DNA of 64,000 nt from Candidatus Saccharimonadota bacterium (GTDB lineage Bacteria > Patescibacteriota > Saccharimonadia > Saccharimonadales > UBA4665), in NCBI GenBank assembly GCA_014377695.1, contig JACMPA010000026.1:4873-68872 (forward strand), read 5' to 3'. This document shows, piece after piece, positions 510-43,579 of this stretch; the first letter of the stretch is position 1, and every line of letters begins with the position of its first letter. The position numbers were made by a program, and so were the translations under genes. The notes beneath the pieces were generated by a model, which was not told the DNA's origin, did no database searches, and saw only the letters and a list, made by a program, of their open reading frames with translations.

Positions 510-654
510 AGTACAAAAGTTGTATTGTTTGCGTGAATTTACCTTAAACATTATTATAGTCTACCGGCTATGTGATGGCAAGTCAGTTGACAGTCGCTAA
601 AAGAAACATTTCCTTATTTCATGCCATAAAGCTTATGCTTAATAGCCTTCGATC

Positions 655-6804: not shown

Positions 6805-7041
6805 TCCTGCGTTTGTGGTATTCTAGACTTCGCGTACAGTCGTGAACATGATCCAGTCCGACATGTGTTCCCACGTCGTACTATACTCAAAGACCATTGC
6901 CAGCTCGGCGTGTATGGTTAGGTTAAATGAAAGCGTCACAACACTCATATCCTGACTGCATTCATAGCTACGAGCCGATGGATGAACGCACGACACACAA
7001 ATGCAGGCTCTGAAGCCAATATCGCCTGAACAACCAGTTGT

Positions 7042-13820: not shown

Positions 13821-13823
13821 AAG

Positions 13824-30147: not shown

Positions 30148-30526
30148 GAAAAATGCTCGCTTTATACAGCTGAAAATTCCAAAGTGTCGTGATTAATAAA
30201 GCAACAGTACGGGTTATAGTCGCTGCGATGTGTCCTTCAAGTAATTTAGTGAGGGCGATTGTAAAGGCAAAGTTCCACACCACTAAAGCCGTGACTGCAG
30301 CCGTCTGTCTGAGCAAGACCTTGTGGTGGGTACGTTTGTCACCGAATGTTACGAATTTTTGCAGGATAAACGAAACGACCAGTCCAACGCAAAATGCTAT
30401 CGCAACTGCTGGGACGGCCGACAATCCGGCTCCCTGCCCGACCAGAATTACACCGAGTTCAAGGACGTACACACTCCCCCCAACGAGTAGGTAGCGCACG
30501 AACCGACGCTGTAGCAGGGCTTTCAT
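30122..30526 (-). CDS. GtrA family membrane protein (lipid-linked sugar translocation)
   Basis: RFVRYLLVGGSVYVLELG...QKFVTF, four TM segments. Overlaps both neighbouring genes. Confidence 0.85.
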   Translation of the reverse strand: MKALLQRRFVRYLLVGGSVYVLELGVILVGQGAGLSAVPAVAIAFCVGLVVSFILQKFVTFGDKRTHHKVLLRQTAAVTALVVWNFAFTIALTKLLEGHIAATITRTVALLITTLWNFQLYKASIFRGAEEPLY

Positions 30527-31491
30527 AGCTGTTGCGAGGAATTTGCTTCGTCAATTATATAGAGCGGGCGACTCTGAGACTCAGCGTGTATATGCGACAG
30601 ATATAATCCAATAATTCCCTGAGACACCATTAGGATACCCACCAGGCATAGCGTGATAACTTCGATGTAGGCTCCACCTGTAGCATGCAAGCCCAACACG
30701 TCACCGAAGATGGCATTAATGATCATGCCAAGAAGCAGCAACAGGGCTAGTGGCAACACGACAACCCCGATGTATGCGACGAAGTATAGCGGCGATACGC
30801 TCAACGATATGACACTGTCGATCGATAATTTGATCAGCTGTCGCACCGAGTACGTGGCATCGCCAGCTATCCGCTCGTCGGCCTCAAAATCAATGAATTC
30901 CTGTTTGTAACCCAACCAGTCGATCAGACCACGAGTAATTCGATTACGCTCGGTAAGTCGATTGAACTCACGCTGGACTGTATGGTCTATCAGGCGAAAA
31001 TCGGTTGAGCCAGAAATTAATTGTGTCCCAGAAATACGATTAAACAACTTGTAGAAATACTTTGACCCAACACGTTTCATAAACCCTTGGTGGCGATCAA
31101 GCGTCCGGACACCGACTACTACCTTAGCACCGGCACGCCAGCGGGCTACGAACTCAGGAATGTGTTGTACCGGGTGCTGCCCATCGGCATCAATCGTCAA
31201 AACAGCTGCCCCTCGGGCAGCGTGAATACCGGCAGTAATTGCCAATTCTTTGCCAAAATTACGGCTAAAGCTGATAATGCGGACCGTTTTGTCGCGGCTA
31301 GCCAATTCGTGTAGTGTTTGCAGCGAGTTATCCCGGCTGCCGTCATTACAGTATATGATTTCACACGGCATTTTGAGTCCACTCAATACCTTGGTAACTG
31401 AGTGGTGAAAAGCCGCAATGCCGGCTTGCTCGTTGTAGACGGGCACGACAACCGATAGTTCGGGATGGATTGTGTTCATACGTTCAGCCAA
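30523..31491 (-). CDS. GT2 polyprenyl-phosphate glycosyltransferase (GtrB/DPM1/ArnC-like)
   Basis: LSVVVPVYNEQ, NDGSRD, IDADGQHP, C-terminal two-TM hairpin. Confidence 0.9.
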   Translation of the reverse strand: MAERMNTIHPELSVVVPVYNEQAGIAAFHHSVTKVLSGLKMPCEIIYCNDGSRDNSLQTLHELASRDKTVRIISFSRNFGKELAITAGIHAARGAAVLTIDADGQHPVQHIPEFVARWRAGAKVVVGVRTLDRHQGFMKRVGSKYFYKLFNRISGTQLISGSTDFRLIDHTVQREFNRLTERNRITRGLIDWLGYKQEFIDFEADERIAGDATYSVRQLIKLSIDSVISLSVSPLYFVAYIGVVVLPLALLLLLGMIINAIFGDVLGLHATGGAYIEVITLCLVGILMVSQGIIGLYLSHIHAESQSRPLYIIDEANSSQQL

Positions 31492-31540
31492 TTGTAGCAG
31501 TAATCACCCCTGTTTCAAAGCATCACAGGCGCAACGAAAT

Positions 31541-31942
31541 TTATAGGAATAAGCGTTCGAGACGAGCCAACAAGTCATTGAGTGAAACATCGGCTTTGAC
31601 GATGAAGTCGACAGCCCCTAGCCCGCGGGCTTCCTGCTCATCACTGAGCTGTGAAAGATTAGTGAACACAGCAATCGGAATACCGCTGAGCGTAGGATCT
31701 GCCCGTACCGCTTGCAGTACCTCAAACCCATTCAATTTAGGCATAATCAAATCAAGGAGAACTAAATCAGGCGCCGCGGTTTTGATGAGAGCCACTGCTT
31801 CAGCACCATCATGAGCCAACACTACAACGTAACCAGCTCGTTCTAAACCGTCTTTATAAGCGACGAGGATGAACTCCTCGTCATCGGCCAGGAGGATAGT
31901 TTTGGGCTTAGTTTGGGTAGGTTGTAGTGCATTATCTTCCAT
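31541..31942 (-). CDS. Single-domain response regulator (receiver only), divergent from pilB
   Basis: ILLADDEE, PDLVLLDLIMP, FIVKA. Confidence 0.85.
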   Translation of the reverse strand: MEDNALQPTQTKPKTILLADDEEFILVAYKDGLERAGYVVVLAHDGAEAVALIKTAAPDLVLLDLIMPKLNGFEVLQAVRADPTLSGIPIAVFTNLSQLSDEQEARGLGAVDFIVKADVSLNDLLARLERLFL

Positions 31943-32109
31943 GTGCCACTACTGTATCATAAAGCACTCGCCGTGGCAGGTCTGGGCCCGTAATGTACTC
32001 TGGTAATTGTCTAGACTGATTGCTACAATACTGCTAACGTTTGAGGCGTCAAAACAGCTCTATTTGCAATAAGTAGATAAGCTAGCAAGCATAGGGTGGA
32101 ACATAGTAC

Positions 32110-33804
32110 ATGACACTGACCGATGATGAACTCGCCAAGGTACTAGAGCACCTTAAGTATTTGCCGCCCGCCAAATTAGCTTCTGCCCAGGCTGATGCTA
32201 AGCTCGAAGAGCTCAGTCTATCTGATGCCTTAGTTCAACATGATTATCTCAGCGAGGATGAAGTTGGCAAGGTAATGGCTTTCCATTATCAATTGCCCTA
32301 CGTATCGCTAACGAGCGTGAATATTGCTGATCCGTTACTACGGCTTATTCCTGAACAAGTTGCTAGTCAATTTCAGACCGTACCATTCAAAATAACAGAT
32401 AACAGCATGCACATCGCTACCAATAATCCTACGGCCACTGACTTATTTGGCATGTTGGCCAAAAAAGCCGGAGCAGCTGATTACAAAGTATCGTTTGCTA
32501 CCGAAGCCGGTATTGCGGCTGCGCTTCATTTGTATAAGCAACAGCTCCAAGGCGTCTTCGATGCGCTACTTGCCCAATCGAAACGTAATGCCACTGAGCC
32601 GATCGCCAAACTTGTCGACAAACTGTTTGAGTATGCCTATGACGCGCGCGCCTCAGACTTACACATTGAACCACTGCGCGAAAAGACGGTGGTACGTTTT
32701 CGAATCGACGGTGTGCTACATGACGAGGTGTTCTTCCCGAAGAAGATTCACGATCAGATTGTCAGTCGGTTAAAAGTACTGGCTCGCCTAAGAACCGATG
32801 AGCATTTAAGTGCCCAAGACGGTCGATTGCACGTCACACTCGGTAGTGAGCAGTTAACTGTTCGTGTTTCGATTGTCCCGAATGTGATGGGCGAAAAAGT
32901 TGTGATGCGGTTACTAGCTAAGCATAGCCGTCAGTTTAGCCTGACAGATCTTGGTATGAGTGATTCTGATCTGAAACAAGTGCGGACGGGCTTTGCCCGG
33001 CCGTTTGGAATGATTCTATCGACCGGACCAACCGGGTCCGGTAAGACTACCAGCATGTACGCCATCCTAAAGATTCTCAACACCCGCGAGCGCAACATTG
33101 CCACGATCGAAGACCCCGTCGAATACGAACTTGATGGAATTAATCAGATTCAGGTCAATGCCAAAACTAACCTGACCTTTAGCGAGGGCTTACGGTCGTT
33201 ACTACGCCAAGATCCAGATGTGCTATTCGTCGGCGAGATTCGCGACCAAGACACGGCGAGTATCGCCGTAAACGCTGCTATGACTGGTCACTTAGTGCTC
33301 AGCACCATGCACACTAACGATGCAGTTACGACGCTGCCCCGTTTAGTGGATATGCAGATCGAACCGTTCCTAGCCGCGTCTACGGTCAATGTGATTGTGG
33401 CTCAACGTTTGGTCCGCAAAATATGTAGTCATTGTAAATCTAGCTTGGAGCTAAAACGTACCAGTAAAGGCTGGCTTGGCGACGCCGCTCAAGCAGCCGT
33501 CCTGAATGCTTTGAATCCCGTAGTCATCGATAAGCATTTTGGCAAAAAAGCCTCCGTCCGAGTTTATCGCGGCACGGGCTGTAGCGCCTGTCACGATACT
33601 GGCTATCAAGGTCGAATTGGTATTTTTGAGGTATTAGAGGTCACGCCAAAGCTAGCACAATTAATCAGCGCCCGGGCTGACACCGACAGTTTGCTCGCTC
33701 AAGCTGTTGCTGACGGTATGGAGACAATGCTGGATGATGGTTTAGAAAAAGTCCTTAGCGGCGAAACGACGCTACTCGAAATTCTAAGAGTCACTGAGGT
33801 CTAG
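32110..33804 (+). CDS. pilB: Type IV pilus assembly ATPase (GspE/PilB family)
   Basis: T2SSE N-domain, Walker A GPTGSGKTT, Asp box, Walker B VLFVGEIRD, His box, tetracysteine CSHC...CSAC. Confidence 0.93.
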   Translation: MTLTDDELAKVLEHLKYLPPAKLASAQADAKLEELSLSDALVQHDYLSEDEVGKVMAFHYQLPYVSLTSVNIADPLLRLIPEQVASQFQTVPFKITDNSMHIATNNPTATDLFGMLAKKAGAADYKVSFATEAGIAAALHLYKQQLQGVFDALLAQSKRNATEPIAKLVDKLFEYAYDARASDLHIEPLREKTVVRFRIDGVLHDEVFFPKKIHDQIVSRLKVLARLRTDEHLSAQDGRLHVTLGSEQLTVRVSIVPNVMGEKVVMRLLAKHSRQFSLTDLGMSDSDLKQVRTGFARPFGMILSTGPTGSGKTTSMYAILKILNTRERNIATIEDPVEYELDGINQIQVNAKTNLTFSEGLRSLLRQDPDVLFVGEIRDQDTASIAVNAAMTGHLVLSTMHTNDAVTTLPRLVDMQIEPFLAASTVNVIVAQRLVRKICSHCKSSLELKRTSKGWLGDAAQAAVLNALNPVVIDKHFGKKASVRVYRGTGCSACHDTGYQGRIGIFEVLEVTPKLAQLISARADTDSLLAQAVADGMETMLDDGLEKVLSGETTLLEILRVTEV

Positions 33805-33810
33805 TCAATA

Positions 33811-34878
33811 ATGTCTACAACCGACAAACACCTAAACATACACTTGAAGGGTAAAGAACGGCTTAGTTTATTTAGTGATTTATCAACCATGCTAACTGCC
33901 GGGATTCCGATCTTAGAAGCCGTCGAATCGCTCGAGGAAGACGTCCGTGGCAACATGAAGAAAGTTCTAGCGATCTTGCACCACAACCTCAATAACGGCG
34001 AGCCTTTGTCGATGGGGTTAGAACGTATGCCCCATGCTTTTGACCCGATTACCGTCAACCTGATACGGGCTGCAGAAGCGGGTGGCACGTTAGAGGAAAC
34101 GCTGCATGACATTGTGCAGACTACCAAAAAAGAGCTGGCTTTCAGCGAGCAACTCCGTAACACCATGATCTACCCTCTGTTTGTAATGGGCGTGTTCATG
34201 ACCATCGTCATCCTGATGTTGACCTTCGTAATTCCACGAGTCGCCAAAGTATTCGAAACGATGCACGTCCAAATGCCGTTCGTAACCCGGATGATGATAT
34301 CGGCATCAAAAACATTCAATGATCACTGGATACTCATTGGTATCGCTTTTATCGCGCTGATCATTTTTGCAGTTGGTTTCGTCAAGGTTAATAGCCGTCC
34401 GATTGCCCGCTTACTTTTGTCGTTACCCGGTTTGAAAATACTCGGGACTAACATTGACCTAACACGCTTTACGCGCAGCTTCGGTTTGCTCATGCATGCT
34501 GGCGTCCCAGTTATCGAAGCGCTCGAGTTATCAGAGAAAGTTGTTCGCAAGAAACAGCTTGTTGAGCTCGTGCAAGACATGAAGCGCAATGTAGAGAACG
34601 GTAAACCGTTATCGACCGGGATGCGTGGCAAAAGAGGCCTAATACCACCAATTATGTCTCGGTCAATCGAAACTGCCGAGGAATCCGGCACGCTCGAACA
34701 GACGATGCAGAATCTGACCGAATATTTCGATGACCAAGTTGCCGGCAGCGTCAAAGTCGTCAGTAGCCTGATTGAGCCAATATTACTGGTCATGGTCGGT
34801 TTAATGGTTGGAGCACTGATGATTACGATTATCGCCCCAATTTATGGCTTAATATCTCAAATTAATCCGAAGTCATAG
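33811..34878 (+). CDS. pilC: Type IV pilus platform protein (GspF/PilC family)
   Basis: Two T2SSF repeats (LSTMLTAGIPILEAV; FGLLMHAGVPVIEAL) and three TM segments. Confidence 0.9.
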   Translation: MSTTDKHLNIHLKGKERLSLFSDLSTMLTAGIPILEAVESLEEDVRGNMKKVLAILHHNLNNGEPLSMGLERMPHAFDPITVNLIRAAEAGGTLEETLHDIVQTTKKELAFSEQLRNTMIYPLFVMGVFMTIVILMLTFVIPRVAKVFETMHVQMPFVTRMMISASKTFNDHWILIGIAFIALIIFAVGFVKVNSRPIARLLLSLPGLKILGTNIDLTRFTRSFGLLMHAGVPVIEALELSEKVVRKKQLVELVQDMKRNVENGKPLSTGMRGKRGLIPPIMSRSIETAEESGTLEQTMQNLTEYFDDQVAGSVKVVSSLIEPILLVMVGLMVGALMITIIAPIYGLISQINPKS

Positions 34879-34883
34879 GGCAT

Positions 34884-35369
34884 ATGTTCCGCAGCATCAC
34901 TACTGACCAATCGGGATTTACACTCGTTGAAGCGTTGGTTGTAACTGGCATACTCGTCATCCTGTTTGCGGTTGGGGCAGTAAACCTCGGTCAGCCTCAG
35001 ACTAACGCTCGGTCAATCAGTGCCGTGGACACACTGGTTAACGACCTAAAGTCGCAGCAGATCGCTGCCATGGCTGGAGCAACGGGCAGCACGGCTGCTC
35101 AACAGGCAGCAGGTATATTTGTGCAATCCAATCAATACACCTTGTTCAATGGCGCCAGCTTTAGTGCTGGTAACAGTTATAACTACATGTTTACGCCCGC
35201 TATCGGCGTCGCATTCGGCACAACCTTCCCCGGCGGCATCATATTGTTTACCAAGGGGGCTGGTGAATTAAGCGGTTTCACGGCGGGTAATAATACCATA
35301 ACCGTAACCGCTGGCGGTGTCAGTAAAGTCATCACTATCAGCCGCTTTGGAGCGGTGACAGTCACATGA
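34884..35369 (+). CDS. Minor (pseudo)pilin with prepilin-type N-terminus
   Basis: QSG|FTLVEALVVTGILVILFAV. Confidence 0.8.
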   Translation: MFRSITTDQSGFTLVEALVVTGILVILFAVGAVNLGQPQTNARSISAVDTLVNDLKSQQIAAMAGATGSTAAQQAAGIFVQSNQYTLFNGASFSAGNSYNYMFTPAIGVAFGTTFPGGIILFTKGAGELSGFTAGNNTITVTAGGVSKVITISRFGAVTVT

Positions 35370-37240
35370 TACATCGGCAATTCGGACAACATTGGGAATC
35401 GGGAGCGACCATCGTCGAGGTCTTAGTAGCAATTGCTCTGACCGGAATATTTTTGCCGGTTTTAGCGACTGCACTGGTGACGGCAAATGCCGGTCATGCA
35501 ACCACAACCCAACAGCTCCAAGCCCAGAGCCTATTACGCGAAGCCACTGACGCTGTCCGAAGCGTCCGTGAAAAAGGTTGGGCGAATGTTGTCGCTGATG
35601 GAACATACCACCCAGTAATTTCTGGCAGCACCTGGAGCTTAACGAATGGTGCCGAAACCATCGGTGGTCTAACTAGGCAAATAGTCATTACGACGCCGCA
35701 GCGGAATGTAGCTGGCGCTATCGTACCGAGCGGTGGTGCTAACGACCCGTCAACTAAGCATGTCGTAGTGACGGTGTCGTGGACTAAGCCGGCTAGTGGC
35801 TCGCTCAGTACCGACTCATATATGACCCGCAATCTGAGCAACGTCGTCTGGACCCAAACTAGTCAAACAGACTTTACTGCCGGCACGCTGAATAACGTCA
35901 ACATTACCAACACAGCTGGGGGCGAGGTTATGCTAAATGCTGGTGGAAGTGGCATATCCTATGCTAGTCCAACGGTGGCTAGCACACTGGATATAACTGG
36001 TGTTACCGATGCCAACGATGTTTACATGGATACCAATACCAGCCGGGCATATGTTGTCAACGGCACCTCCCTGAGTATCATAAATGTCGCGAATCCGGCC
36101 GCTCCAGTTCTGCTGGGTACCTACTCGGCAGGCCTGCTATTGAATGGGGTGTATGTGGTGGGAAATTATGCCTACATTGCATCCTCATCGGATACAGCCG
36201 AACTGACAGTAGTGAACGTGACTACTCCGTCGAGCCCGACTTTGGCAGGCTCTTTGAATCTCGGCGACACCGCTGATGCCACGAGCATTTATGTCAGCGG
36301 AAGTAACGCCTACGTTGGCAAAATCCTCAGTAGCACCACCAATATCAATGAGTTCTACGTCGTCAATGTCAGTACGCCGACTAGCCCCAGCCTTGCTGGC
36401 TCCTTGAACCTGACAGGCAATATCAACTCCGTCTGTGTCAAAGGAAATTATGCCTACGTTGCCACCGCCATCACGACCGCCGAGCTGACGATAATTAACA
36501 TTACGACGCCAACTCTACCAGTCCAGGCAGGCGTCTACGATGCCGCCGGGACGGCAGCCGCTAACGATGTTTTTTGTGGCAGTACATATATCTACCTAGC
36601 TGAGGCTAGCAATACCGGCGGACCAGAGCTTTTCATCATCGATCCTTCAACACCAGTCAGTCCAACATTGACCGGCTCATATGAGGTTGGTAATACCGTA
36701 TATGGGGTAGCCGTCGCCGGCGCTGAGGCATTTTTGCTTACGGCTGTAAACAATAAGCAATTCACTGTTCTGGACACGACCATACCTTCAGCGCCGGTAG
36801 TTGAGGGCGTTGCTAAAATCACCGTAGCCAATGATATCTATGTAGCCAATAACAATGCTTATTTGGCATCGACTGATAACGTTGGTGAGCTTACTGTTAT
36901 GCAGGGGAGTGCCAGCACCGGCGGCCAGTCTGCCAGCGGAACTTATGAGTCACCGACACTCGACAGCGGCAATGGTGGCGGGGGGTTCAATTCCCTGGCC
37001 TTTACTATCAGCCAACCGACAAATACAACCGTTTCATTCCAAATCGCCACCAATAATGATAATGCCACTTGGTCGTATGTCGGGCCTGATGGTACCGCAA
37101 GAAGCCAATATACCGCCGCCGGAGCCATCCCGTTGGGCTTGGTTGGTAACCGCTATTTACGCTATAAAGCTGCGCTTTATACAACTACGAAGACCGTCTT
37201 GCCATTGATATACGACGTAACGGTGAATTATTCGCCATGA
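35366..37240 (+). CDS. Large minor pilin carrying a 7-blade LVIVD-repeat beta-propeller and a C-terminal beta-sandwich
   Basis: Prepilin-like ESG|ATIVEVLVAIALTGIFL. Seven repeats of the type NYAYIASSSDTAELTVVNVTTPSSPTLAG. ATGA overlaps at both ends. Confidence 0.75.
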   Translation: MIHRQFGQHWESGATIVEVLVAIALTGIFLPVLATALVTANAGHATTTQQLQAQSLLREATDAVRSVREKGWANVVADGTYHPVISGSTWSLTNGAETIGGLTRQIVITTPQRNVAGAIVPSGGANDPSTKHVVVTVSWTKPASGSLSTDSYMTRNLSNVVWTQTSQTDFTAGTLNNVNITNTAGGEVMLNAGGSGISYASPTVASTLDITGVTDANDVYMDTNTSRAYVVNGTSLSIINVANPAAPVLLGTYSAGLLLNGVYVVGNYAYIASSSDTAELTVVNVTTPSSPTLAGSLNLGDTADATSIYVSGSNAYVGKILSSTTNINEFYVVNVSTPTSPSLAGSLNLTGNINSVCVKGNYAYVATAITTAELTIINITTPTLPVQAGVYDAAGTAAANDVFCGSTYIYLAEASNTGGPELFIIDPSTPVSPTLTGSYEVGNTVYGVAVAGAEAFLLTAVNNKQFTVLDTTIPSAPVVEGVAKITVANDIYVANNNAYLASTDNVGELTVMQGSASTGGQSASGTYESPTLDSGNGGGGFNSLAFTISQPTNTTVSFQIATNNDNATWSYVGPDGTARSQYTAAGAIPLGLVGNRYLRYKAALYTTTKTVLPLIYDVTVNYSP

Positions 37241-37734
37241 TACAACTACGTCGTCTCGGTTCAAAGGGGGTAACATTTGTAGAGATCTTGCTCGTTATGG
37301 GTTTGCTTTCAATCTTTTTGGTTGTCATGACAACCATTTTTACCAGTGCCCTTGATGTTCAGACTCAATCGGAGACGTATAGTGCAACGCTGAGTGACGG
37401 GCGCTTCATCATGGCACGTTTAAACTATGACATCAGTCGGGCCACAGCCGTTACTACGCCAGCAGCGCTCGGCGCTGCTGGCACGTCCCTGGTGCTTACA
37501 ATCAACGCCACACCTTATACCTTCGCCGTGGTGGGTTCTAACCTACAACTAACTGACCCGACTGGTAGCGCCAACCTGACGGGTGGCACCAGCATATCGA
37601 GTGTTTCGTTCCAACGGCTTGGCAACGTCGGCGGCAAAGACACCGTCCGCTACACCTTCATTTTATCGAGCCTCGCCCGCAATGAGGGTGTCAGTAACAC
37701 GCAAACATTCACAAGCACGGCGGAGCTCCGATAA
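37237..37734 (+). CDS. Minor pilin with prepilin-type N-terminus
   Basis: SKG|VTFVEILLVMGLLSIFLVV. Confidence 0.75.
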   Translation: MIQLRRLGSKGVTFVEILLVMGLLSIFLVVMTTIFTSALDVQTQSETYSATLSDGRFIMARLNYDISRATAVTTPAALGAAGTSLVLTINATPYTFAVVGSNLQLTDPTGSANLTGGTSISSVSFQRLGNVGGKDTVRYTFILSSLARNEGVSNTQTFTSTAELR

Positions 37735-38135
37735 TGCAGCGAGGCGCTGAAAGTAGTCAAACTGGTCAAACAATCATTGCGCTGCTGATATTCATGTTGC
37801 TATCTATTTTGATAACAACAACGGCTGTCACAATCACAGTCATCAACTCTGCTGGGAACAATCAAAGCAGCCTTGGTGAGTTAGCTCGTCAGGCGGCCGA
37901 AACTGGTGCCGAGAATGCTTTGCTGCAATTAGAACGCGATCCTACCTATAGCGGTGAAACGATGTCTATAAATAGTGCTACAACTGCTACAATAACCGTA
38001 AGCGGTACCACGACACGCACCATCACTTCGACTGGAGCAGTTGCTGGCATCGGCACATTCAAGCGAACAGTAGTTGTTACCGCCACGTACAGCGGTTTTG
38101 CATTTACCGTCACAAACTGGATCGAAACACCATAA
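37734..38135 (+). CDS. PilX-like minor pilin (no Glu5)
   Basis: QTG|QTIIALLIFMLLSILITTTAV. Confidence 0.6.
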   Translation: MQRGAESSQTGQTIIALLIFMLLSILITTTAVTITVINSAGNNQSSLGELARQAAETGAENALLQLERDPTYSGETMSINSATTATITVSGTTTRTITSTGAVAGIGTFKRTVVVTATYSGFAFTVTNWIETP

Positions 38136-38139
38136 GCCC

Positions 38140-38697
38140 ATGCCTATATTTAGTAAGCCTAACGCAATTGTGTATGTCCGCCGCAGTGGATTGATTGTCG
38201 CCGGCAAAAAGCTAACGCCGGCTCGTCTGAATTTTGATCCGAAGCAGATTGAGAATTTAGAAGTATTAGACGAAGCAGCCTTCGTTGATACACTGACCGA
38301 ATTCTTTCGTAATCATAATCTTAAAAATAAACACGTCTTGATGGTATTGGACGATAGTGTGCTATTCACAAAACATGTAGCGCTGGATGCAGCCGGTAAA
38401 CCGGCTGCTATAACTGATGCCTTTATCGAATCTATGCCATTGCATCCTGGCAAGCGAGCTTGCTTGAGGGTTGTCCACGACAGCAAACTGACGTTATATG
38501 CCAGTAACGGTGACCTATACCGTAGTGTCGCAGGAGCCTTAGACTATGCAGGAGCATCAAAAGTACTAGCCATAACACCGGCCAATGCCTACCCTTCGGC
38601 CTCTGGTAAGCAACCATTGGCAGCTGCAGTACAGCAGTATGTCAATGATACAACTGTGCGCTCTTCAGCCAACTTTCAGAATACGCCTTTAGTTTAG
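38140..38697 (+). CDS. Pilus-locus protein resembling the N-terminal half of PilM (tentative)
   Basis: ATG at 38140, 5 nt after the previous stop. The pattern ...IENLEVLDEAAFVDTLTEFFRNHNLKNKHVLMVLDDSVLFTKHVAL... resembles PilM domain 1. No TM segment. Confidence 0.4.
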   Translation: MPIFSKPNAIVYVRRSGLIVAGKKLTPARLNFDPKQIENLEVLDEAAFVDTLTEFFRNHNLKNKHVLMVLDDSVLFTKHVALDAAGKPAAITDAFIESMPLHPGKRACLRVVHDSKLTLYASNGDLYRSVAGALDYAGASKVLAITPANAYPSASGKQPLAAAVQQYVNDTTVRSSANFQNTPLV

Positions 38698-38734
38698 ATA
38701 TTGTGATATTTGCAACGTATAACCATAGTTAATA

Positions 38735-38763
38735 TTGACAACTTCTCTCAACTGAATAAAGAT
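38735..38763 (+). promoter_or_regulatory. Sigma-70-like promoter ahead of pilin paralog 1
   Basis: TTGACA(38735-38740)-N17-AAAGAT(38758-38763), followed by AGCAGCA. Confidence 0.4.
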
Positions 38764-38794
38764 AGCAGCATTAACGTAACGAGGTTATGCTTAC

Positions 38795-39478
38795 ATGCAA
38801 AACTTAAAACTAAAAAGTACAGCAACAAACCAGGGTGGGTTTACGCTTATTGAACTTTTAGTAGTAATTGGCATCCTTGCCATCCTACTCGCAATCACCC
38901 TAATCGCTATCAACCCTACTAAGCACTTCCAGGATACAAGGAATGCCAAGCGCTCATCAGATGTCGCAGCAATTCTCGATTCTATCTATGAGTACGAGTC
39001 AGGCAATAACGGAGCCCAGCCAGCATCTGTGTCAGGTGTGACCGCAACCCCAACAGCTGTCGGCGGAGTTTCTCAGGCCGCTACCGGCACTACGTTTGCC
39101 AACCCTAACCTGACCTACACCGGATTTACGGCTAATACGATTACTAGCGGTACTGTAAAAGTAACCGGCTGTGCCACAGCAGCTAACAACGGCAGCTATC
39201 CTGTTACGACCGGAAACGCAACGAGTATCACAGTCACCAACGCCAGCGGCGTTGCCGGCGATACTACTTGTGTCATCACTGGATGGTCAAGCCGCATTAA
39301 CATCTGTGCCGACGTCGTACCGACCTATCTAGCAGCCTTACCAATGGATCCAAGCGCAACGGGAACTTCTTGTACCTCAAGCTTCAACACCGGCTACACC
39401 ATAGCCGCTACTGGTGGACGCTTTACTATCGCTGCACCTAGTGCCGAAGGCGGCGCAGTCATTACCGTTACCCGCTAA
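38795..39478 (+). CDS. Type IV major pilin paralog 1
   Basis: G|FTLIELLVVIGILAILLAITLIAINP. Cys-bracketed insert. C-terminus RFTIAAPSAEGGAVITVTR. Confidence 0.88.
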   Translation: MQNLKLKSTATNQGGFTLIELLVVIGILAILLAITLIAINPTKHFQDTRNAKRSSDVAAILDSIYEYESGNNGAQPASVSGVTATPTAVGGVSQAATGTTFANPNLTYTGFTANTITSGTVKVTGCATAANNGSYPVTTGNATSITVTNASGVAGDTTCVITGWSSRINICADVVPTYLAALPMDPSATGTSCTSSFNTGYTIAATGGRFTIAAPSAEGGAVITVTR

Positions 39479-39520
39479 GACTGCCGAAATACATTAACTG
39501 ACCGAATAAGGAAACCAAAA

Positions 39521-40207
39521 ATGAAACAACTCAATTTCCAACGTAATCTGAAAGACCAAAGCGGTTTTACCCTGATAGAGCTACTTGTAGTTATCGGTAT
39601 CCTTGCCATCTTACTAGCTATCACGCTGATTGCCATTAACCCAACCAAGCACTTCCAAGATACCCGAAACGCCAAGCGTTCGTCCGATGTTGCGGCTATC
39701 CTCGACTCAATCTACGAGTACGAGTCCAGCAATAACGGTGCCCAGCCACCAGCAGTTACCGGTGTTAGTGCTGCCGTTGCATTAGGTGCGATTCCATCAC
39801 AAACTGCTACCGCCACAAGCTTTTCAACACCGAACCTAACCTTAACCGTTCCATCTGGTAACATCATTACTACTGGTACCGTCACCATCACTGGCTGTAG
39901 CCAGGCTGCCGACAACGGTGCCTACCCTGTCACAGCCGGAACGCTTACGAGCATCACCGTTACCAACGCTACTGCTTCCGCTACCAGTGCCACCGGTTGC
40001 GTAATATCAGCTTGGACCGGCCGCGTCGACCTCTGTGCAAACGTTGTTCCGACCTACCTCGCTAACCTACCAATGGACCCATCCTCAGCTGATACAGCTT
40101 GTGCTCCAACCTACAATTCTGGCTACACCATTGCTCGTGCCAACGGCCGCTTTACCATCGCTGCACCTAGTGCCGAAGGTGGCGCAGTAATCAGCGTAAC
40201 CCGTTAA
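39521..40207 (+). CDS. Type IV major pilin paralog 2
   Basis: Same N- and C-terminal blocks as paralog 1, with a different central cassette (TVPSGNIITTG). Confidence 0.88.
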   Translation: MKQLNFQRNLKDQSGFTLIELLVVIGILAILLAITLIAINPTKHFQDTRNAKRSSDVAAILDSIYEYESSNNGAQPPAVTGVSAAVALGAIPSQTATATSFSTPNLTLTVPSGNIITTGTVTITGCSQAADNGAYPVTAGTLTSITVTNATASATSATGCVISAWTGRVDLCANVVPTYLANLPMDPSSADTACAPTYNSGYTIARANGRFTIAAPSAEGGAVISVTR

Positions 40208-40217
40208 GGAGATTGAA

Positions 40218-40712
40218 ATGATTACGCAAAAGCTTAAACAGTCGAATCAAAACGGCTTCACACTCATCGAACTCTTAGTTGTTATCGGCATCCTGGCAAT
40301 CTTGCTAGCGATCACCCTAATAGCTATCAATCCGAACAAGCACTTCCAGGACACCCGTAATGCGAAGCGCTCGTCCGATGTTGCAGCACTCTTAGACGGA
40401 ATCTATGAGTACCAATCAGCCAACAGCGGTACATTGCCCCTAAGCGTGCGGGCTGGCACCATCCCAGCTGCCAGCAAAGTTGCCAGCACCGACATAAACC
40501 TGTGTGATGTCGTTCCAACGTATCTAGCTGATCTGCCAATGGACCCTGACTCAACAGTAACTGGCAGCTTTAGCACTGGTGCTTCGACACCGTGTAATGT
40601 CGCTACAACGTCATACGATACCGGTTACGAGATTGCTAAAACGGCAAATGGCCGCTTCACCCTATCTGCACCTTCCGCTGAAGGAGGCAGTACAATTAAC
40701 GTAACCCGCTAA
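40218..40712 (+). CDS. Type IV pilin paralog 3 (short form lacking the central insert of about 65 aa)
   Basis: NG|FTLIELLVVIGILAILLAITLIAINP ... RFTLSAPSAEGGSTINVTR. Confidence 0.85.
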   Translation: MITQKLKQSNQNGFTLIELLVVIGILAILLAITLIAINPNKHFQDTRNAKRSSDVAALLDGIYEYQSANSGTLPLSVRAGTIPAASKVASTDINLCDVVPTYLADLPMDPDSTVTGSFSTGASTPCNVATTSYDTGYEIAKTANGRFTLSAPSAEGGSTINVTR

Positions 40713-40735
40713 AACGGTTAGAACGTACATTTCAT

Positions 40736-40993
40736 ATGCCTACAGCTACAAAGCGCACTACGAAAACATCCCCCGCTAAGAGTCAATCCACTAAAAAGGC
40801 AGTTTCCAAAAGGCTGCCCAGCAAAAAACCGATAGCCCCCCGGGCTATCGGTAACACCGCAAAAACCCAGCCAACTCGCCGTGGTCGACTAACCAGCAGC
40901 GAAGAGTACTCTACGGCTACCTGGATACTGATCAGCATTTGGCTGGTATTGATAGCCATATTTATTGGTACATTCGTCGGCAAGAGTGGTTGA
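40736..40993 (+). CDS. Small basic tail-anchored membrane protein inside the pilin array
   Basis: K/R/T-rich N-terminal 60 aa and a single C-terminal TM (WILISIWLVLIAIFIGTFV). Confidence 0.4.
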   Translation: MPTATKRTTKTSPAKSQSTKKAVSKRLPSKKPIAPRAIGNTAKTQPTRRGRLTSSEEYSTATWILISIWLVLIAIFIGTFVGKSG

Positions 40994-41039
40994 ATAAGTT
41001 CGTAGTACTGCTTAACGACAAGATAGCAAAGCGCTTATG

Positions 41040-41068
41040 TTGACATTTTTATATATTTAATCAATGAT
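41040..41068 (+). promoter_or_regulatory. Sigma-70-like promoter ahead of pilin paralog 4
   Basis: TTGACA(41040-41045)-N17-AATGAT(41063-41068), followed by AGTATCA. Same architecture as at 38735. Confidence 0.4.
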
Positions 41069-41098
41069 AGTATCAACAACACTAAACGGTAAACCAAC

Positions 41099-41785
41099 AT
41101 GAAAAAAACACACAGTTCCCAGGACGGATTCACCCTTATCGAGCTATTAGTCGTAATCGGCATCTTAGCAATCCTATTAGCCATTACGCTCATCGCCATA
41201 AACCCAACTAAGCACTTCCAGGATAGTCGTAATGCCCAACGTCAGTCTGATGTAGCAGCACTTCTTGATGGAGTATACGAGTACCAAGCTGCTAACTCCG
41301 GTACCATTCCAGCAGTCTTAACTTCATATGTGAGCCCAACGGTCGCTAAAAGCCTCGGAGCACTGCCAAACCAAACAGCAACAGGCACAACGTTCGCGAA
41401 CCCTAACCTTACCTTCACCGGTCTCACTACCAACACCATCACATCAGGTACTGTCACCATTACTGGCTGTTCGCAAGCTGCTGACAACGGCACATTCCCT
41501 GTCACTTCCGGAACAGCCACTACTTTGGTTGTCACCAATGCCAGTGGCGTAGCTGCTGCAACCGGTTGTGTAATTGCTGGTTCTCGCATTGACCTCTGTT
41601 CTGCCTTAGTCCCAAGCTATATTGCAGCGCTTCCAATGGATCCAAGCACCACAGTCAGCAGTGGTACCCAATGTACCGCTACCTACAATACTGGTTACAC
41701 TATTCAGTCTAACGTCGCCGGTAACCGCTATACTGTCGCTGCACCTGGTGCTGAAAACTCAGTTGTCATCAGCGTAACTCGTTAA
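41099..41785 (+). CDS. Type IV major pilin paralog 4
   Basis: DG|FTLIELLVVIGILAILLAITLIAINP ... NRYTVAAPGAENSVVISVTR. Confidence 0.88.
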   Translation: MKKTHSSQDGFTLIELLVVIGILAILLAITLIAINPTKHFQDSRNAQRQSDVAALLDGVYEYQAANSGTIPAVLTSYVSPTVAKSLGALPNQTATGTTFANPNLTFTGLTTNTITSGTVTITGCSQAADNGTFPVTSGTATTLVVTNASGVAAATGCVIAGSRIDLCSALVPSYIAALPMDPSTTVSSGTQCTATYNTGYTIQSNVAGNRYTVAAPGAENSVVISVTR

Positions 41786-41803
41786 CACTTACATCCAGAC
41801 GTC

Positions 41804-42529
41804 ATGACTAACCCTTTCTATATCGCCTTGACTAATAAGTTGCAGCCCTCCGTCAAAAACGAAGATGGCTTTACGCTCATAGAATTACTCGTGGTCATAG
41901 GTATCCTAGCAATCTTGTTAGCCATTACAATCGTCGCAATCAATCCGACATTACAGTTCCAAAATGCCCGCAATGCGCAACGTCAATCGGACGTTGCGGC
42001 AATCCTCGACGGCGTGTATGAGTATCAAGCATCGAATGCTGGGGCCGTACCGTCTAATTTGTCATCGTACATCAGTACCACCGTCGCCAAAAACTTGGGT
42101 GCACTGCCGAACCAAACAGCTACGAGTACAACGTTCGCGAACCCTAACCTTACCTACACTGTTCCATCAGGCAACATCATTACCTCAGGTACGGTTACGG
42201 TCACCAGCTGTACTCAAGCCGGTGACAATGGTACTTTCCCTGTAGTATCGGGCACCCTCACGACGATCGTCGTTACAAATGCTGGCGGCTCGGTTATCAG
42301 TGCAACCGGCTGCGTGATTGCTGGCTTCCGCATTGACCTCTGTTCTGCACTTGTCCCTACTTTTATTGCGGCCCTCCCAATGGACCCTAGCCCGACTGTG
42401 AGTAGCGGGGCACAGTGTGCTCTCACCTTCAATACAGGCTATACCATCCTGTCCAATGCCGCCGGTAACCGCTACACGGTTGCTGCTCCTGGAGCGGAAG
42501 CCGGTGCTACTATTAGCATTACTCGTTAA
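41804..42529 (+). CDS. Type IV major pilin paralog 5
   Basis: DG|FTLIELLVVIGILAILLAITIVAINP ... NRYTVAAPGAEAGATISITR. Confidence 0.88.
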   Translation: MTNPFYIALTNKLQPSVKNEDGFTLIELLVVIGILAILLAITIVAINPTLQFQNARNAQRQSDVAAILDGVYEYQASNAGAVPSNLSSYISTTVAKNLGALPNQTATSTTFANPNLTYTVPSGNIITSGTVTVTSCTQAGDNGTFPVVSGTLTTIVVTNAGGSVISATGCVIAGFRIDLCSALVPTFIAALPMDPSPTVSSGAQCALTFNTGYTILSNAAGNRYTVAAPGAEAGATISITR

Positions 42530-43467
42530 GCTCGTGCCTTCAAGTAGCCTCTTTTCACGACAAGTATAAATGCTCCCGAGCCAATAATCAGCGGTATCCA
42601 AAAAGTACATACTCGGTATAGCAGCGCGGTGGCTAAGGCCATGTCGTTGTTGACGCCCATTGCGACTAATCCGGTATAGGCGCCGGCTTCAGCCGCACCA
42701 ACCCCACCCGGTGTAGGGACAATCGAAGTAGCCAACACGCTTGCACTCAGCGCAATGATTGCCGTCGCAAGTGATAAGTGCACACCGACTGCTGCAGCTG
42801 ACGCAAAGAGACTCACTGCGTAACTCAGGGTAATGAGCATCGAAGCGCTGAGCGCCTTGAGCAAGTCGCGCGGATGGGTCAGTAAAGACTTGAGTGGCTG
42901 TACGAAGTTCGCTAACTTGCTGCGCAGCAGTATCGCAAGACCGGCGGCGAGTAGCCCGACAACACTTAGGATTTGGATACCGGTCGTAACCGTATTGGAT
43001 GCAATATCCAGTGACCCCAAAGCACTTGGCTCGAACAGAATAAAAAATAAGAATAAAAGTACGTGTCCTAGTAGCCCAAGTATGTTGTTGAGGAGTACGA
43101 CCGCTCCGGCCTGAACGGTGGAAACCTTATTTGCTCTCAGGTACAAAAAACTTGTTCCAGCTGCACCGGATCCGCTTGGTAACAGCTTGTTTACACAAAA
43201 GCCCGCCATCTGAACCAATAGCGTACGGCCAAAGCGCAGCGGTTTTGGACTAAGTACTTTGTATACAAGTGTTGAAGCTGGCAGGGTAGCAAACATTGCA
43301 ACGATACCAAGTACGAGCCAGCCAGTGTTGGCATGTGTGGCAGATTGCGCTGCTTGCACTATAGTAGCCCGCTGGCGAACTAGTAATACTACTAATAGAC
43401 ATATAATACCGATATATAGTAGGTAACGGATATACCCGTGCTGATTCGCTTGCACCGGCTTTGACAT
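42526..43467 (-). CDS. Flippase-like / lysylphosphatidylglycerol-synthase TM-region family membrane protein (UPF0104)
   Basis: Eight TM segments; NKLLPSGSGAAGTSFLYL and VPTPGGVGAAEAG motifs. Confidence 0.75.
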   Translation of the reverse strand: MSKPVQANQHGYIRYLLYIGIICLLVVLLVRQRATIVQAAQSATHANTGWLVLGIVAMFATLPASTLVYKVLSPKPLRFGRTLLVQMAGFCVNKLLPSGSGAAGTSFLYLRANKVSTVQAGAVVLLNNILGLLGHVLLFLFFILFEPSALGSLDIASNTVTTGIQILSVVGLLAAGLAILLRSKLANFVQPLKSLLTHPRDLLKALSASMLITLSYAVSLFASAAAVGVHLSLATAIIALSASVLATSIVPTPGGVGAAEAGAYTGLVAMGVNNDMALATALLYRVCTFWIPLIIGSGAFILVVKRGYLKARA

Positions 43468-43519
43468 GGGTTAAGCGTAAAAGTTTTTAAGTCTAAACGC
43501 AAGTGTGGGTGCTAAATCG

Positions 43520-43549
43520 TTAACCAATATATTTACATATATTGGTTAA
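43520..43549. promoter_or_regulatory. Perfect 13-bp inverted repeat; candidate MarR operator
   Basis: ttaaccaatatat-ttac-atatattggttaa, ending 30 bp upstream of the marR start codon. Confidence 0.45.
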
Positions 43550-43579
43550 GATACTATACTATTTAGGTACTTAACTATT

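What the first reader, a model, noticed from the sequence alone, without database searches (positions are those of the whole stretch)
35366..37240. Minor pilin fused to a seven-bladed LVIVD beta-propeller: candidate pilus-tip adhesin
Seen in sequence:
- The 624-aa ORF starts with a prepilin-like segment (G|ATIVEVLVAIALTGIFL, with Glu5).
- About 200 aa follow, and then seven tandem repeats of about 40 aa with the consensus (G)NYAY(V/I)A...ELT(V/I)(V/I)N(V/I)T.P..P.L.G.
- A C-terminal beta-sandwich-like domain (RYLRYKAALYTT) ends the protein.
- The gene is translationally coupled (ATGA overlaps) to three smaller minor pilins.

Established: minor pilins prime the pilus and sit at its tip. Type IV pili are required for saccharibacterial host association.

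Inference: the propeller is the host-recognition module presented at the tip, analogous to but unrelated to PilY1/PilC adhesins.
Basis: partly seen in the sequence, partly recalled or inferred. Interest (0 to 1): 0.65.

Follow-up and report, generated by a model that had tools for sequence, protein, structure and literature searches.

The report
Propeller-bearing minor pilin of a Saccharibacterium
This gene encodes a type IV pilus minor subunit that carries a seven-bladed LVIVD propeller and a sugar-binding-like domain; it is a plausible pilus-tip adhesin of an uncultured Saccharibacterium, but it belongs to a large, already catalogued family and the idea has a tested precedent in a related organism.

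Summary
ORF 35366..37240 (+) encodes a 624-aa protein with four parts:
- a prepilin-type N-terminus (G13|A14, Glu at +5, both at least 90% conserved in 58 homologues)
- a pilin head
- seven LVIVD repeats (Pfam E = 1.3e-22), modelled as a seven-bladed propeller (pLDDT 89)
- a beta-sandwich

The gene is second in a PilB-PilC-H-I-J-K minor-pilin operon, which is followed by five major-pilin paralogues.

Two corrections:
- The sandwich is a split, carbohydrate-binding-module-like jelly-roll. The 330-residue propeller (residues 194-523) is inserted into one of its loops.
- Only two of the three junctions are ATGA overlaps.

The family is large: 1145 hits in Saccharimonadales and other Patescibacteria. 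It is also modular. The same operon slot can hold a ~295-aa form without a propeller, forms with one or two propellers, or forms with lectin-like or unknown inserts.

The tip-adhesin reading is plausible but unproven. It is not new in kind:
- Pilin+LVIVD architectures were catalogued in 2021.
- In Nanosynbacter lyticus TM7x, a propeller-bearing minor pilin (PilX2) is needed for efficient host binding.

I recovered a TM7x-like PilX2. It is not homologous to this protein: it has an RCC1 propeller, sits in slot 4 and lacks Glu5.

Verdict: a new member of a known kind, of moderate interest.

The parts
32110..33804 (+). PilB-type assembly ATPase, first gene of the operon
   Evidence: Pfam T2SSE 2.4e-124 and MshEN 8.6e-11
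33811..34878 (+). PilC-type inner-membrane platform protein
   Evidence: Pfam T2SSF 2.8e-49, 2 stretches
34884..35369 (+). Slot-1 minor pilin, 161 aa, N-terminus ..DQSG|FTLVE. It is GspH/FimU/ComGD-like. Its stop codon overlaps the start of the next gene (ATGA).
   Evidence: N_methyl 1.5e-5. Weak NCBIfam hits to ComGD, GspH and PpdA-type models. Overlap read.
35366..37240 (+). The finding: a 624-aa slot-2 (GspI/PilV position) modular minor pilin
35366..35404 (+). Leader peptide, residues 1-13, ending in Gly13. The predicted prepilin-peptidase cleavage site is G13|A14.
   Evidence: Read from the sequence. G13 is at least 90% conserved.
35405..35572 (+). Alpha1 helix, residues 14-69, with Glu18 at position +5 of the mature protein
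   Evidence: AF2 helix 16-69. E18 is at least 90% conserved. The PDB profile search matches pilin N-termini.
35573..35839 (+). Pilin head beta-sheet, residues 70-158
   Evidence: AF2 strands 79-154 with pLDDT about 87-95. Mean identity to homologues is 55%.
35840..35944 (+). First part of the split jelly-roll/CBM-like sandwich, residues 159-193
   Evidence: Collinear with short-form P0122 residues 156-190. Fold of the short form.
35945..36934 (+). Inserted module, residues 194-523: a seven-bladed LVIVD beta-propeller. It replaces a 6-residue loop of the short forms.
   Evidence: Pfam LVIVD 1.3e-22. AF2 blades. Repeat alignment. Insertion boundaries.
36935..37240 (+). Second part of the jelly-roll/CBM-like sandwich, residues 524-624, with the conserved VGPDGT and RYxRYKA motifs, plus the stop codon
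   Evidence: 51% identical to P0122 residues 197-295, E = 8e-28. Conserved columns listed.
37237..37734 (+). Slot-3 minor pilin, 165 aa, N-terminus ..GSKG|VTFVE. It is PilW/GspJ-like and has an ATGA overlap with the 624-aa gene.
   Evidence: Weak N_methyl and PpdB-type hits. Overlap read.
37734..38135 (+). Slot-4 minor pilin, 133 aa, N-terminus ..SQTG|QTIIA, with no Glu at +5. It is GspK/PilX-like and has a TAATG overlap with the previous gene.
   Evidence: Sequence. The same G|QT(L/I)(V/I)A motif occurs in homologous operons.
38141..38697 (+). Conserved ~185-aa protein of unknown function that follows the minor pilins. The listed ORF starts at a TTG at 38074; the likely start is the ATG at 38141.
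   Evidence: No family hit. Present at the same position in L003, L005, L006, L008, L009 and L022.
38795..42529 (+). Five tandem major-pilin paralogues (227, 228, 164, 228 and 241 aa)
   Evidence: N_methyl 3.5e-8 and 9.5e-10. Alignment A5: invariant N-termini, heads 60-70% identical.

Best explanation
The 624-aa protein is a modular type IV minor pilin. It sits in the second (GspI/PilV) position of a four-gene core minor-pilin set (H-I-J-K), encoded directly after PilB and PilC.

**Proposed mechanism**
1. Inferred: prepilin peptidase cuts after Gly13.
2. Inferred: the hydrophobic alpha1 helix with Glu5 anchors the protein in the priming complex with the three small minor pilins. That complex ends up at the distal end of the filament built from the downstream major pilins.
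3. Shown at the level of sequence and model: the pilin head carries a carbohydrate-binding-module-like jelly-roll, and a seven-bladed LVIVD propeller is inserted into one loop of that jelly-roll.
4. Inferred: the jelly-roll plus propeller form the exposed ligand-binding head that contacts a surface polymer, most likely a glycan or wall polymer, of the bacterial host of this episymbiont.
5. Inferred: the exchangeable insert (none, one propeller, two propellers, or a lectin-like domain) tunes what is bound.
For: **Pilin identity**
- The G-1/E+5 motif is conserved in at least 90% of 58 homologues.
- The model has a long N-terminal helix and a pilin head.
- The profile matches pilin N-termini in the PDB.
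- Sources name homologues as prepilin-type, PilV or PulG proteins.

**Operon**
- The order is PilB, PilC, 161-aa pilin, this gene, 165-aa pilin, 133-aa pilin lacking Glu5, then five major pilins, with overlapping stop and start codons.
- The same order is conserved in Saccharimonadales loci L003-L022.

**Propeller**
- LVIVD E = 1.3e-22.
- Seven blades in a model with pLDDT 89.
- Foldseek matches seven-bladed propellers.

**Module behaviour**
- Short homologues of ~295 aa are 57% and 51% identical on either side of the insert and lack it.
- Among 258 complete family members the architectures are: 155 with one propeller, 22 with one propeller plus extra sequence, 12 with two propellers, 51 with none and 18 with other inserts.
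- Three of the other inserts hit DUF4082 or Lectin_like.

**Binding-type fold and surface character**
- The short-form model (pLDDT 87) matches CBM6, CBM32, CBM35 and galactose-binding-like modules.
- The propeller is the least conserved domain, at 43% identity against 52-55% for the other domains. Its presumed top-face loops have the highest entropy, 2.1 against 1.6 bits.
- Gly+Ala+Ser+Thr make up 43% of the protein, as reported for surface pilins (PMC11623550).

**Precedents**
- TM7x PilX2 is a propeller-bearing minor pilin needed for efficient host binding (PMC12206443).
- S. sanguinis PilB and PilC are modular adhesive pilins (PMC8179133).
Against: - There is no experimental datum for this family: no cleavage, no presence in pili, no binding.
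- The N_methyl and GspI model hits for this protein are below threshold. The slot assignment therefore rests on gene order and on the Glu5 pattern.
- No multimer prediction could be run, so tip exposure is inferred.
- The propeller is absent in many close relatives with the same operon. It cannot be essential for pilus assembly, and the conserved jelly-roll rather than the propeller may be the main binder.
- The structural matches to carbohydrate-binding modules are modest (E about 1e-4 to 1e-5, TM-score about 0.5 normalised to the target).
- The face assignment of the variable loops assumes a strand order read from the DSSP string only.
- No PilD, PilT or PilM/N/O gene lies in the window among the ORFs I scanned.
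Confidence: 0.55

Rival explanations
1. Structural or regulatory cap rather than adhesin. The propeller would work like the C-terminal propeller of PilY1: it would stabilise or prime the minor-pilin complex and control extension and retraction, without binding the host itself.
For: - It sits in the priming-complex operon.
- From established knowledge of PilY1, cited in PMC8179133 and PMC7541494, the PilY1 propeller is the carrier that docks on minor pilins, while other modules bind ligands.
- The TM7x pilX2 deletion also changed filament number and dimensions.
Against: - Many relatives run the same operon without any propeller, so it is not needed for priming.
- It is the most variable domain.
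- It is replaced by lectin-like domains in some members, which fits a ligand-facing role better.
Confidence: 0.15
2. The conserved jelly-roll/CBM-like domain is the real ligand binder. The propeller would be a spacer, shield or secondary co-receptor module with little specificity of its own.
For: - The jelly-roll is present in all complete family members and is better conserved, at 52% identity, with invariant VGPDGT and RYxRYKA motifs.
- Its fold matches carbohydrate-binding modules.
- One member carries a precomputed F5/8 type C (PF00754) hit.
Against: - Insertion, duplication and replacement of large modules at one loop are hard to explain if they add no function.
- The variable loops cluster on one presumed face of the propeller.
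Confidence: 0.15
3. The operon builds a DNA-uptake (competence) pilus or a non-adhesive secretion pseudopilus. The large minor pilin would serve DNA capture or substrate handling rather than host attachment.
For: - No pilT lies next to pilB and pilC in the window.
- The slot-1 pilin has weak ComGD and GspH hits.
- Sources name several homologues 'type II secretion system protein'.
Against: - Five major-pilin paralogues of 164-241 aa with large variable heads fit an exposed adhesive filament better than a short pseudopilus.
- Neither propellers nor CBM-like folds are known DNA receptors.
- In TM7x the pilT-less T4P-2 system contributes to host binding, not to competence (PMC12206443).
Confidence: 0.08
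4. The propeller is an enzyme, for example one that cleaves a host surface polymer, delivered on the pilus.
For: - Some modular pilins carry predicted peptidase modules (PMC8179133).
- Some beta-propellers are glycosidases, and weak Foldseek matches of the short form include sialidase and GH43 chains through their accessory modules.
Against: - There is no hit to any catalytic family.
- The conserved propeller residues are the repeated structural NYAY/G positions.
- From my own knowledge, LVIVD repeats have no known catalytic activity. The literature I read describes them as cell-surface repeats of unknown function (PMC10210494).
Confidence: 0.05

Closest known systems
PilX2 of Nanosynbacter lyticus TM7x (Grossman et al., ISME J 2025, PMC12206443)
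   Same: - Saccharibacterial minor pilin in a four-gene minor-pilin operon that is followed by a major pilin.
- Carries a seven-bladed beta-propeller.
- Proposed to be the adhesin of a type IV pilus; its deletion roughly halves host binding.
   Different: - A TM7x-like copy recovered here (L036 2917-4647, 576 aa) has an RCC1-type propeller (PF00415, 9e-49), not LVIVD.
- It is the fourth gene of the set and lacks Glu5 (MMRKKDG|YSLVL). The window protein is the second gene and has Glu5.
- Its propeller is C-terminal, not inserted in a jelly-roll.
- BLASTP between the two gives a best E of 0.29, and the family HMMs do not hit it.
- The relationship is therefore analogous, not orthologous.
Modular type IV pilins, with S. 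sanguinis PilB (vWA) and PilC (lectin) as the studied examples (Raynaud et al., PNAS 2021, PMC8179133)
   Same: - A pilin module carries a grafted functional module for presentation by the filament.
- That paper's Dataset S1 already lists IPR012902-IPR013211 (pilin + LVIVD repeat) architectures with 1, 2, 5 and up to 12 repeats, mostly from candidate phyla.
   Different: - In that catalogue the LVIVD module is only a 'motif of unknown function'. No structure, operon context or function is given.
- Here the module is inserted into a second (CBM-like) domain rather than linked to the C-terminus.
- Here the carrier is a core (slot-2) minor pilin.
PilY1/PilC tip adhesins of Pseudomonas, Neisseria and Myxococcus
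   Same: A large propeller-containing protein associated with the core minor pilins and thought to sit at the pilus tip.
   Different: - From established knowledge, PilY1 is not a pilin: it has no class III signal peptide or alpha1 helix, and docks through its propeller.
- There is no PilY1 family hit here at E <= 1.
- PilY1 is not among the top 50 structural matches.
GspI/PilV core minor pilins of type II secretion and type IVa pili
   Same: - Second position in an H-I-J-K gene order, followed by a slot-4 pilin without Glu5.
- Small pilin head and Glu5 present.
- JGI names some homologues PilV.
   Different: - Model scores are far below threshold (TIGR01707 E = 0.81).
- From established knowledge, classical GspI/PilV proteins are about 120-190 aa with no extra domains.

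Membership tests
Type IV pilin / class III signal peptide proteins (IPR012902, PF07963) | Short leader ending in Gly at position -1 | tested here: met
   The N-terminus reads MIHRQFGQHWESG|A. G13 is at least 90% conserved in 58 homologues and invariant in the 12 closest.
Type IV pilin / class III signal peptide proteins (IPR012902, PF07963) | Glu at +5, followed by a hydrophobic stretch of about 20 residues that forms alpha1-N | tested here: met
   E18 is at least 90% conserved. The AF2 model has a helix at 16-69.
Type IV pilin / class III signal peptide proteins (IPR012902, PF07963) | Score above the curated threshold of the N_methyl model | tested here: inconclusive
   The window protein scores 11.9 bits against a cut-off of 21.2. 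Several full-length homologues carry a precomputed PF07963 hit. Position +1 is Ala or Gln rather than Phe or Met.
Type IV pilin / class III signal peptide proteins (IPR012902, PF07963) | Cleavage and N-methylation by prepilin peptidase, and incorporation into filaments | not testable with these tools
   This needs mass spectrometry of pili. No PilD gene was found among the window ORFs I scanned.
Core minor pilin of the GspI/PilV position | Second gene of an H-I-J-K set whose fourth member lacks Glu5 | tested here: met
   The window order is 161 aa (E5), 624 aa (E5), 165 aa (E5), 133 aa (Ala at +5). The same order occurs in L005, L006, L010 and L022.
Core minor pilin of the GspI/PilV position | Significant similarity to GspI/PilV models | tested here: inconclusive
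   TIGR01707 gives E = 0.81. The best of the five TM7x-like pilins is PilV2, but at only 12 bits.
Core minor pilin of the GspI/PilV position | Forms a complex with the slot-3 and slot-4 pilins | not testable with these tools
LVIVD-repeat beta-propeller (PF08309 / IPR013211) | Repeats score above the curated threshold | tested here: met
   79.3 bits against a cut-off of 20.2, E = 1.3e-22, 5 stretches. Seven repeats are aligned.
LVIVD-repeat beta-propeller (PF08309 / IPR013211) | Each repeat forms a four-stranded blade of a closed propeller | tested here: met
   In the AF2 model, blocks across residues 210-510 have pLDDT about 90-98, with four strands per repeat. Foldseek matches seven-bladed propellers. 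This is a prediction, not a solved structure.
PilY1/PilC adhesins (IPR008707) | PilY1-type propeller domain detectable by sequence | tested here: not met
   No such Pfam family appears at E <= 1.
PilY1/PilC adhesins (IPR008707) | Non-pilin protein that docks on the minor pilins | tested here: not met
   The protein has its own pilin N-terminus and head.
TM7x PilX2-type propeller pilin | RCC1-repeat propeller at the C-terminus of the slot-4, Glu5-less pilin | tested here: not met
   L036 PilX2 scores RCC1 9e-49. The window protein has no RCC1 hit, the BLASTP E-value is 0.29, and slot and Glu5 status differ.
Modular pilins (Raynaud et al. 2021) | An N-terminal pilin module plus at least one domain that is not specific to pilus biology | tested here: met
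   Pilin module plus CBM-like jelly-roll plus LVIVD propeller. The IPR012902-IPR013211 architecture is listed in that paper's Dataset S1.

The most novel reading that the evidence does not exclude
The slot-2 minor pilin of Saccharimonadales and other Patescibacteria may be a hot-swappable display scaffold. One loop of its CBM-like jelly-roll accepts no insert, one or two LVIVD propellers, lectin-like domains or unknown domains, and this insert sets which host bacterium the episymbiont can attach to.

TM7x uses a different slot (4) and an unrelated RCC1 propeller. On this reading, propeller-tipped pili arose at least twice within Saccharibacteria, which marks the pilus tip as the main host-range determinant of the group.
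Probability: 0.3. Interest if true: 0.7.

Novelty: new member of a known kind. Interest (0 to 1): 0.45.

Why it matters
How ultrasmall episymbiotic Patescibacteria find and hold their bacterial hosts is largely unknown, and type IV pili are the best lead.

This family gives a concrete and widespread candidate for the ligand-binding end of one such pilus. Its natural variants (no propeller, one, two, or lectin-like inserts at the same loop) amount to a ready-made domain-swap series. Those variants could be compared with host associations and tested with recombinant proteins.

The family also shows that the propeller-bearing pilin studied in TM7x is not a one-off. It is one of at least two independent solutions within the same phylum.

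The limit is that this organism is uncultured and nothing here has been tested at the bench.

Tried and rejected
**Steps that failed or added nothing**
1. The genome scan with the 58-sequence alignment failed for lack of a conserved stretch. A 12-sequence alignment worked.
2. A Pfam scan of the 122-sequence alignment A3 exceeded the residue limit. I replaced it with local HMMs of the four regions plus a Pfam scan of the ten members whose insert the propeller HMM did not match.
3. Table S5 of the TM7x paper contains only genome metadata and was no help for homology.
4. The profile search of PDB sequences found no solved LVIVD propeller or close relative. It matched only pilin N-termini and weak WD40 hits.
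5. The Foldseek search of the whole model returned only generic propellers. The short form was modelled separately so that the scaffold fold could be seen.
6. The promoter and terminator scan of 31400-43600 gave nothing that defines operon ends.

**Readings rejected**
- Orthology with TM7x PilX2.
- Membership of the PilY1 family.
- The C-terminal sandwich as a separate domain that simply follows the propeller.

**Left open**
- I could not tell whether this locus corresponds to TM7x T4P-1 or T4P-2. The pilB-pilC adjacency without pilT resembles locus two, but I had no TM7x PilB sequences to compare.
Full report
**What is there**

The ORF at 35366..37240 (+) is real and encodes 624 aa. It is the fourth gene of a tightly packed plus-strand operon:

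| Coordinates | Product | Evidence |
|---|---|---|
| 32110-33804 | PilB ATPase | T2SSE 2.4e-124 |
| 33811-34878 | PilC platform | T2SSF 2.8e-49 |
| 34884-35369 | 161-aa pilin | |
| 35366-37240 | the 624-aa protein | |
| 37237-37734 | 165-aa pilin | |
| 37734-38135 | 133-aa pilin | |
| 38141-38697 | conserved ~185-aa protein with no family hit | |
| 38795-42529 | five tandem major-pilin paralogues | |

The 624-aa gene overlaps both neighbours by ATGA. The next junction is a 1-nt TAATG overlap. No rRNA lies in the window and only two tRNAs do.

**The N-terminus**

The sequence reads MIHRQFGQHWESG|ATIVEVLVAIALTGIFL. In an alignment of 58 full-length homologues (35-78% identical), Gly13 and Glu18 (position +5) are conserved in at least 90% of sequences. 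In the 12 closest homologues both are invariant. The Pfam N_methyl model scores below its threshold for this protein (11.9 bits against 21.2), probably because position +1 is Ala or Gln rather than Phe. Several homologues do pass it.

The three small neighbours read ..DQSG|FTLVE..GSKG|VTFVE and ..SQTG|QTIIA. The last one lacks Glu5. From established knowledge, a Glu5-less fourth pilin is the hallmark of GspK/PilX. The order of four pilins after the assembly genes also mirrors gspH-I-J-K and fimU-pilV-pilW-pilX. On gene order, the 624-aa protein therefore occupies the GspI/PilV slot. Direct model scores for that assignment are not significant (TIGR01707 E = 0.81), so this is a positional inference. 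The same order, with the same N-terminal motifs, recurs in Saccharimonadales loci L003, L005, L006, L008, L010 and L022.

**The repeats and the fold**

Residues 216-523 contain seven repeats of 36-48 aa with the pattern (D/S)VYV-GNYAYVA-ELT(V/I)(V/I)N(V/I)T-P--P-L-G. Their mean pairwise identity is 33%. Pfam LVIVD scores E = 1.3e-22, well above the curated cut-off.

An AlphaFold2 model built on the 58-sequence alignment has mean pLDDT 89.1. It contains:
- a helix at 16-69
- a pilin-head sheet at 79-154
- further strands at 160-208
- seven groups of four strands from 216 to about 517
- a final sandwich at 524-623

Foldseek against the PDB returns generic seven-bladed propellers: TLE/Groucho WD40, a bacterial WD40, BamB, DDB1 and the phage P22 gp10 hub. 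TM-scores reach 0.72-0.78 normalised to the target. PilY1 is not in the top 50. No solved structure is related by sequence beyond pilin N-termini.

**The main correction: the propeller is an insertion**

The species-representative genome scan found several Saccharimonadales loci in which the same operon slot holds a protein of only ~295 aa. BLASTP of one of them (P0122) against the window protein gives two collinear blocks:
- window 11-193 against short form 8-190, 57% identical, E = 1e-64
- window 524-624 against short form 197-295, 51% identical, E = 8e-28

The 330 residues 194-523 therefore replace a six-residue loop. The short form was modelled with 43 homologues (pLDDT 87.3). It is a pilin module followed by one compact beta-sandwich. 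The best structural matches of that sandwich are carbohydrate-binding modules and related jelly-rolls: CBM6, CBM32, the CBM35 of Xyn30D, a sialidase galactose-binding module and the PNGase C-terminal domain. E-values are about 1e-4 to 1e-5 and TM-scores about 0.5 normalised to the target. The match is modest but consistent. One family member also carries a precomputed F5/8 type C hit.

**The family is large and modular**

- The full protein finds 1145 clusters at E <= 1e-3, from Saccharimonadales and also Woykebacteria, Parcubacteria/Paceibacteria and unclassified Patescibacteria.
- Residues 1-210 alone find 2002 representatives at 50% clustering, 104 of them at E <= 1e-30.
- I built local HMMs of the four regions and classed 258 complete members:

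| Architecture | Members |
|---|---|
| One propeller | 155 |
| One propeller plus extra sequence | 22 |
| Two tandem propellers | 12 |
| No insert | 51 |
| Insert not matched by the propeller HMM | 18 |

- The two-propeller forms are clear duplications of the insert. The closest one is 75% identical to the window protein in the pilin domain.
- Ten members whose insert the propeller HMM did not match (nine of ~620-970 aa) were scanned against Pfam. Three hit DUF4082 and/or Lectin_like (PF18560); the rest hit nothing.
- Short forms mostly cluster together: 43 of 51 have a short form as nearest neighbour. They are nevertheless up to 73% identical to propeller forms in the pilin domain. This fits few loss or gain events among close lineages.
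- Within the one-propeller alignment the propeller is the least conserved domain, at 43% mean identity to the window protein, against 55% for the pilin head and 52% for the C-terminal part of the sandwich. The B-C and D-A loops, the presumed top face, have higher entropy (2.1 bits) than the A-B and C-D loops (1.6 bits). The face assignment rests on the strand order read from the DSSP string and should be checked on coordinates.

**How it most likely works**

- *Shown.* The protein has a conserved class III-type N-terminus. It sits in a conserved minor-pilin operon next to the assembly ATPase and platform. It carries a CBM-like domain with an inserted, variable, confidently modelled propeller.
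- *Inferred.* It is cleaved after Gly13. It joins the three small minor pilins in the priming complex and so ends up at the distal end of filaments made of the downstream major pilins. The jelly-roll and propeller head contact a surface polymer of the host bacterium. I put this at 0.55.
- *Rivals.* A structural or regulatory cap like the PilY1 propeller (0.15), weakened by the propeller-less relatives. The jelly-roll as the true binder with the propeller as an accessory (0.15). A competence or secretion pseudopilus role (0.08). An enzymatic module (0.05).

**Comparison with what is known**

Two publications bear directly on novelty.

*Raynaud et al. 2021 (PMC8179133).* They showed that modular pilins are widespread. 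Their Dataset S1 lists IPR012902-IPR013211 architectures with one, two, five and up to twelve repeats, and the text calls IPR013211 a motif of unknown function. IPR013211 is the LVIVD repeat (PMC10210494). The pilin+LVIVD architecture is therefore already catalogued, though not studied.

*Grossman et al. 2025 (PMC12206443).* They showed that Nanosynbacter lyticus TM7x makes two pili. The minor pilin PilX2, with a seven-bladed propeller 'with RCC1 repeats' and a non-canonical signal peptide, is needed for efficient host binding (10.6% of hosts bound for wild type, 4.6% for the mutant). They proposed it as the adhesin of T4P-2.

*Test of identity with PilX2.* To see whether the window protein is the same thing, I used a published primer (PilX2_Dwn_F) as an exact 22-nt probe of the metagenome collection. 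It recovered three contigs. L036 has the published gene order and sizes: pilins of 163, 154 and 275 aa, then a 576-aa protein, then a 142-aa major pilin.
- The 576-aa protein scores RCC1 9e-49 and RCC1-like domain 6e-59.
- It begins MMRKKDG|YSLVL, without Glu5, and is the fourth pilin of the set.
- It has no significant similarity to the window protein (best BLASTP E = 0.29).
- None of the family HMMs hit it.

The two proteins are therefore analogous, not orthologous. They differ in carrier slot, in propeller family and in topology: a C-terminal graft in one, an insertion into a jelly-roll in the other. The caveat is that L036 is a TM7x-like metagenome contig, not the TM7x genome itself.

**Verdict**

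Pilin identity, the propeller and the lack of relation to PilY1 stand. Tip location and host recognition are reasonable inferences with a good precedent, but they are untested, and the conserved jelly-roll may matter as much as the propeller.
- The protein is a new member of a known kind, a modular minor pilin with a presumed adhesive module.
- What the papers I searched do not describe is the insertion topology, the slot-2 carrier, and the natural series of none, one, two or lectin-like inserts at a single loop.
- Interest is moderate (0.45). The family would be useful for anyone working on host recognition by Patescibacteria, but it would not surprise them.

Noticed in passing
window 38795-42529 (+): Five tandem major-pilin paralogues of 227, 228, 164, 228 and 241 aa. 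Residues about 15-67 are almost invariant and the heads are 60-70% identical. The 164-aa copy lacks a head segment of about 60 aa. This could allow filament variation or recombination between copies. Related loci carry 1-6 copies.
   Followed up: partly
window 38141-38697 (+): A ~185-aa protein directly after the slot-4 pilin has no Pfam or NCBIfam hit. It is conserved at the same position in related operons, with the N-terminal motif MF-KPN-IVYVRR--LIVAGK. It may be an unrecognised pilus assembly component.
   Followed up: partly
family members P0166, P0175, P0182 (not in the window): These have the same pilin and jelly-roll scaffold, but the insert hits DUF4082 and/or Lectin_like (PF18560) instead of LVIVD. 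Seven further members scanned with them (for example P0127, P0198, P0177, P0216 and P0243) have inserts that hit no non-pilin Pfam family.
   Followed up: partly
L036 1172-5168 (TM7x-like contig ERZ773263.2257): The published TM7x 'locus three' reads, in coding direction, pilZ2-pilV2-pilW2-pilX2-pilA2. PilX2 is thus the slot-4, Glu5-less pilin, which would explain why no PilD signal peptide was predicted for it in the paper.
   Followed up: yes
window 12282-15305 (-): A cohesin-domain protein (493 aa) lies next to a protein with Big_7, purple-acid-phosphatase N-terminal and dockerin domains (512 aa). They form a possible cohesin-dockerin surface pair.
   Followed up: no
window 61461-63989 (-): An 842-aa protein with phage-tail-lysozyme and CHAP domains. 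It may be a wall-degrading enzyme relevant to the episymbiotic lifestyle.
   Followed up: no
window 2948-3700 (+) and 5698-8532: A bacteriorhodopsin-like protein (E = 7.8e-47) lies near two photolyase-family genes.
   Followed up: no
window 28612-31942 (-): A PIG-L-type deacetylase, a GtrA-like membrane protein, a GT2 glycosyltransferase and a single-domain response regulator lie just upstream of pilB and are divergently oriented. A role in glycosylating or regulating the pilus is possible but untested.
   Followed up: no
L018 and L023: Contigs from MAGs labelled Bdellovibrionales and Gammaproteobacteria carry the same PilB-PilC-pilin operon type with an LVIVD-bearing pilin. This could reflect mis-binning or a wider distribution of the family.
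   Followed up: no
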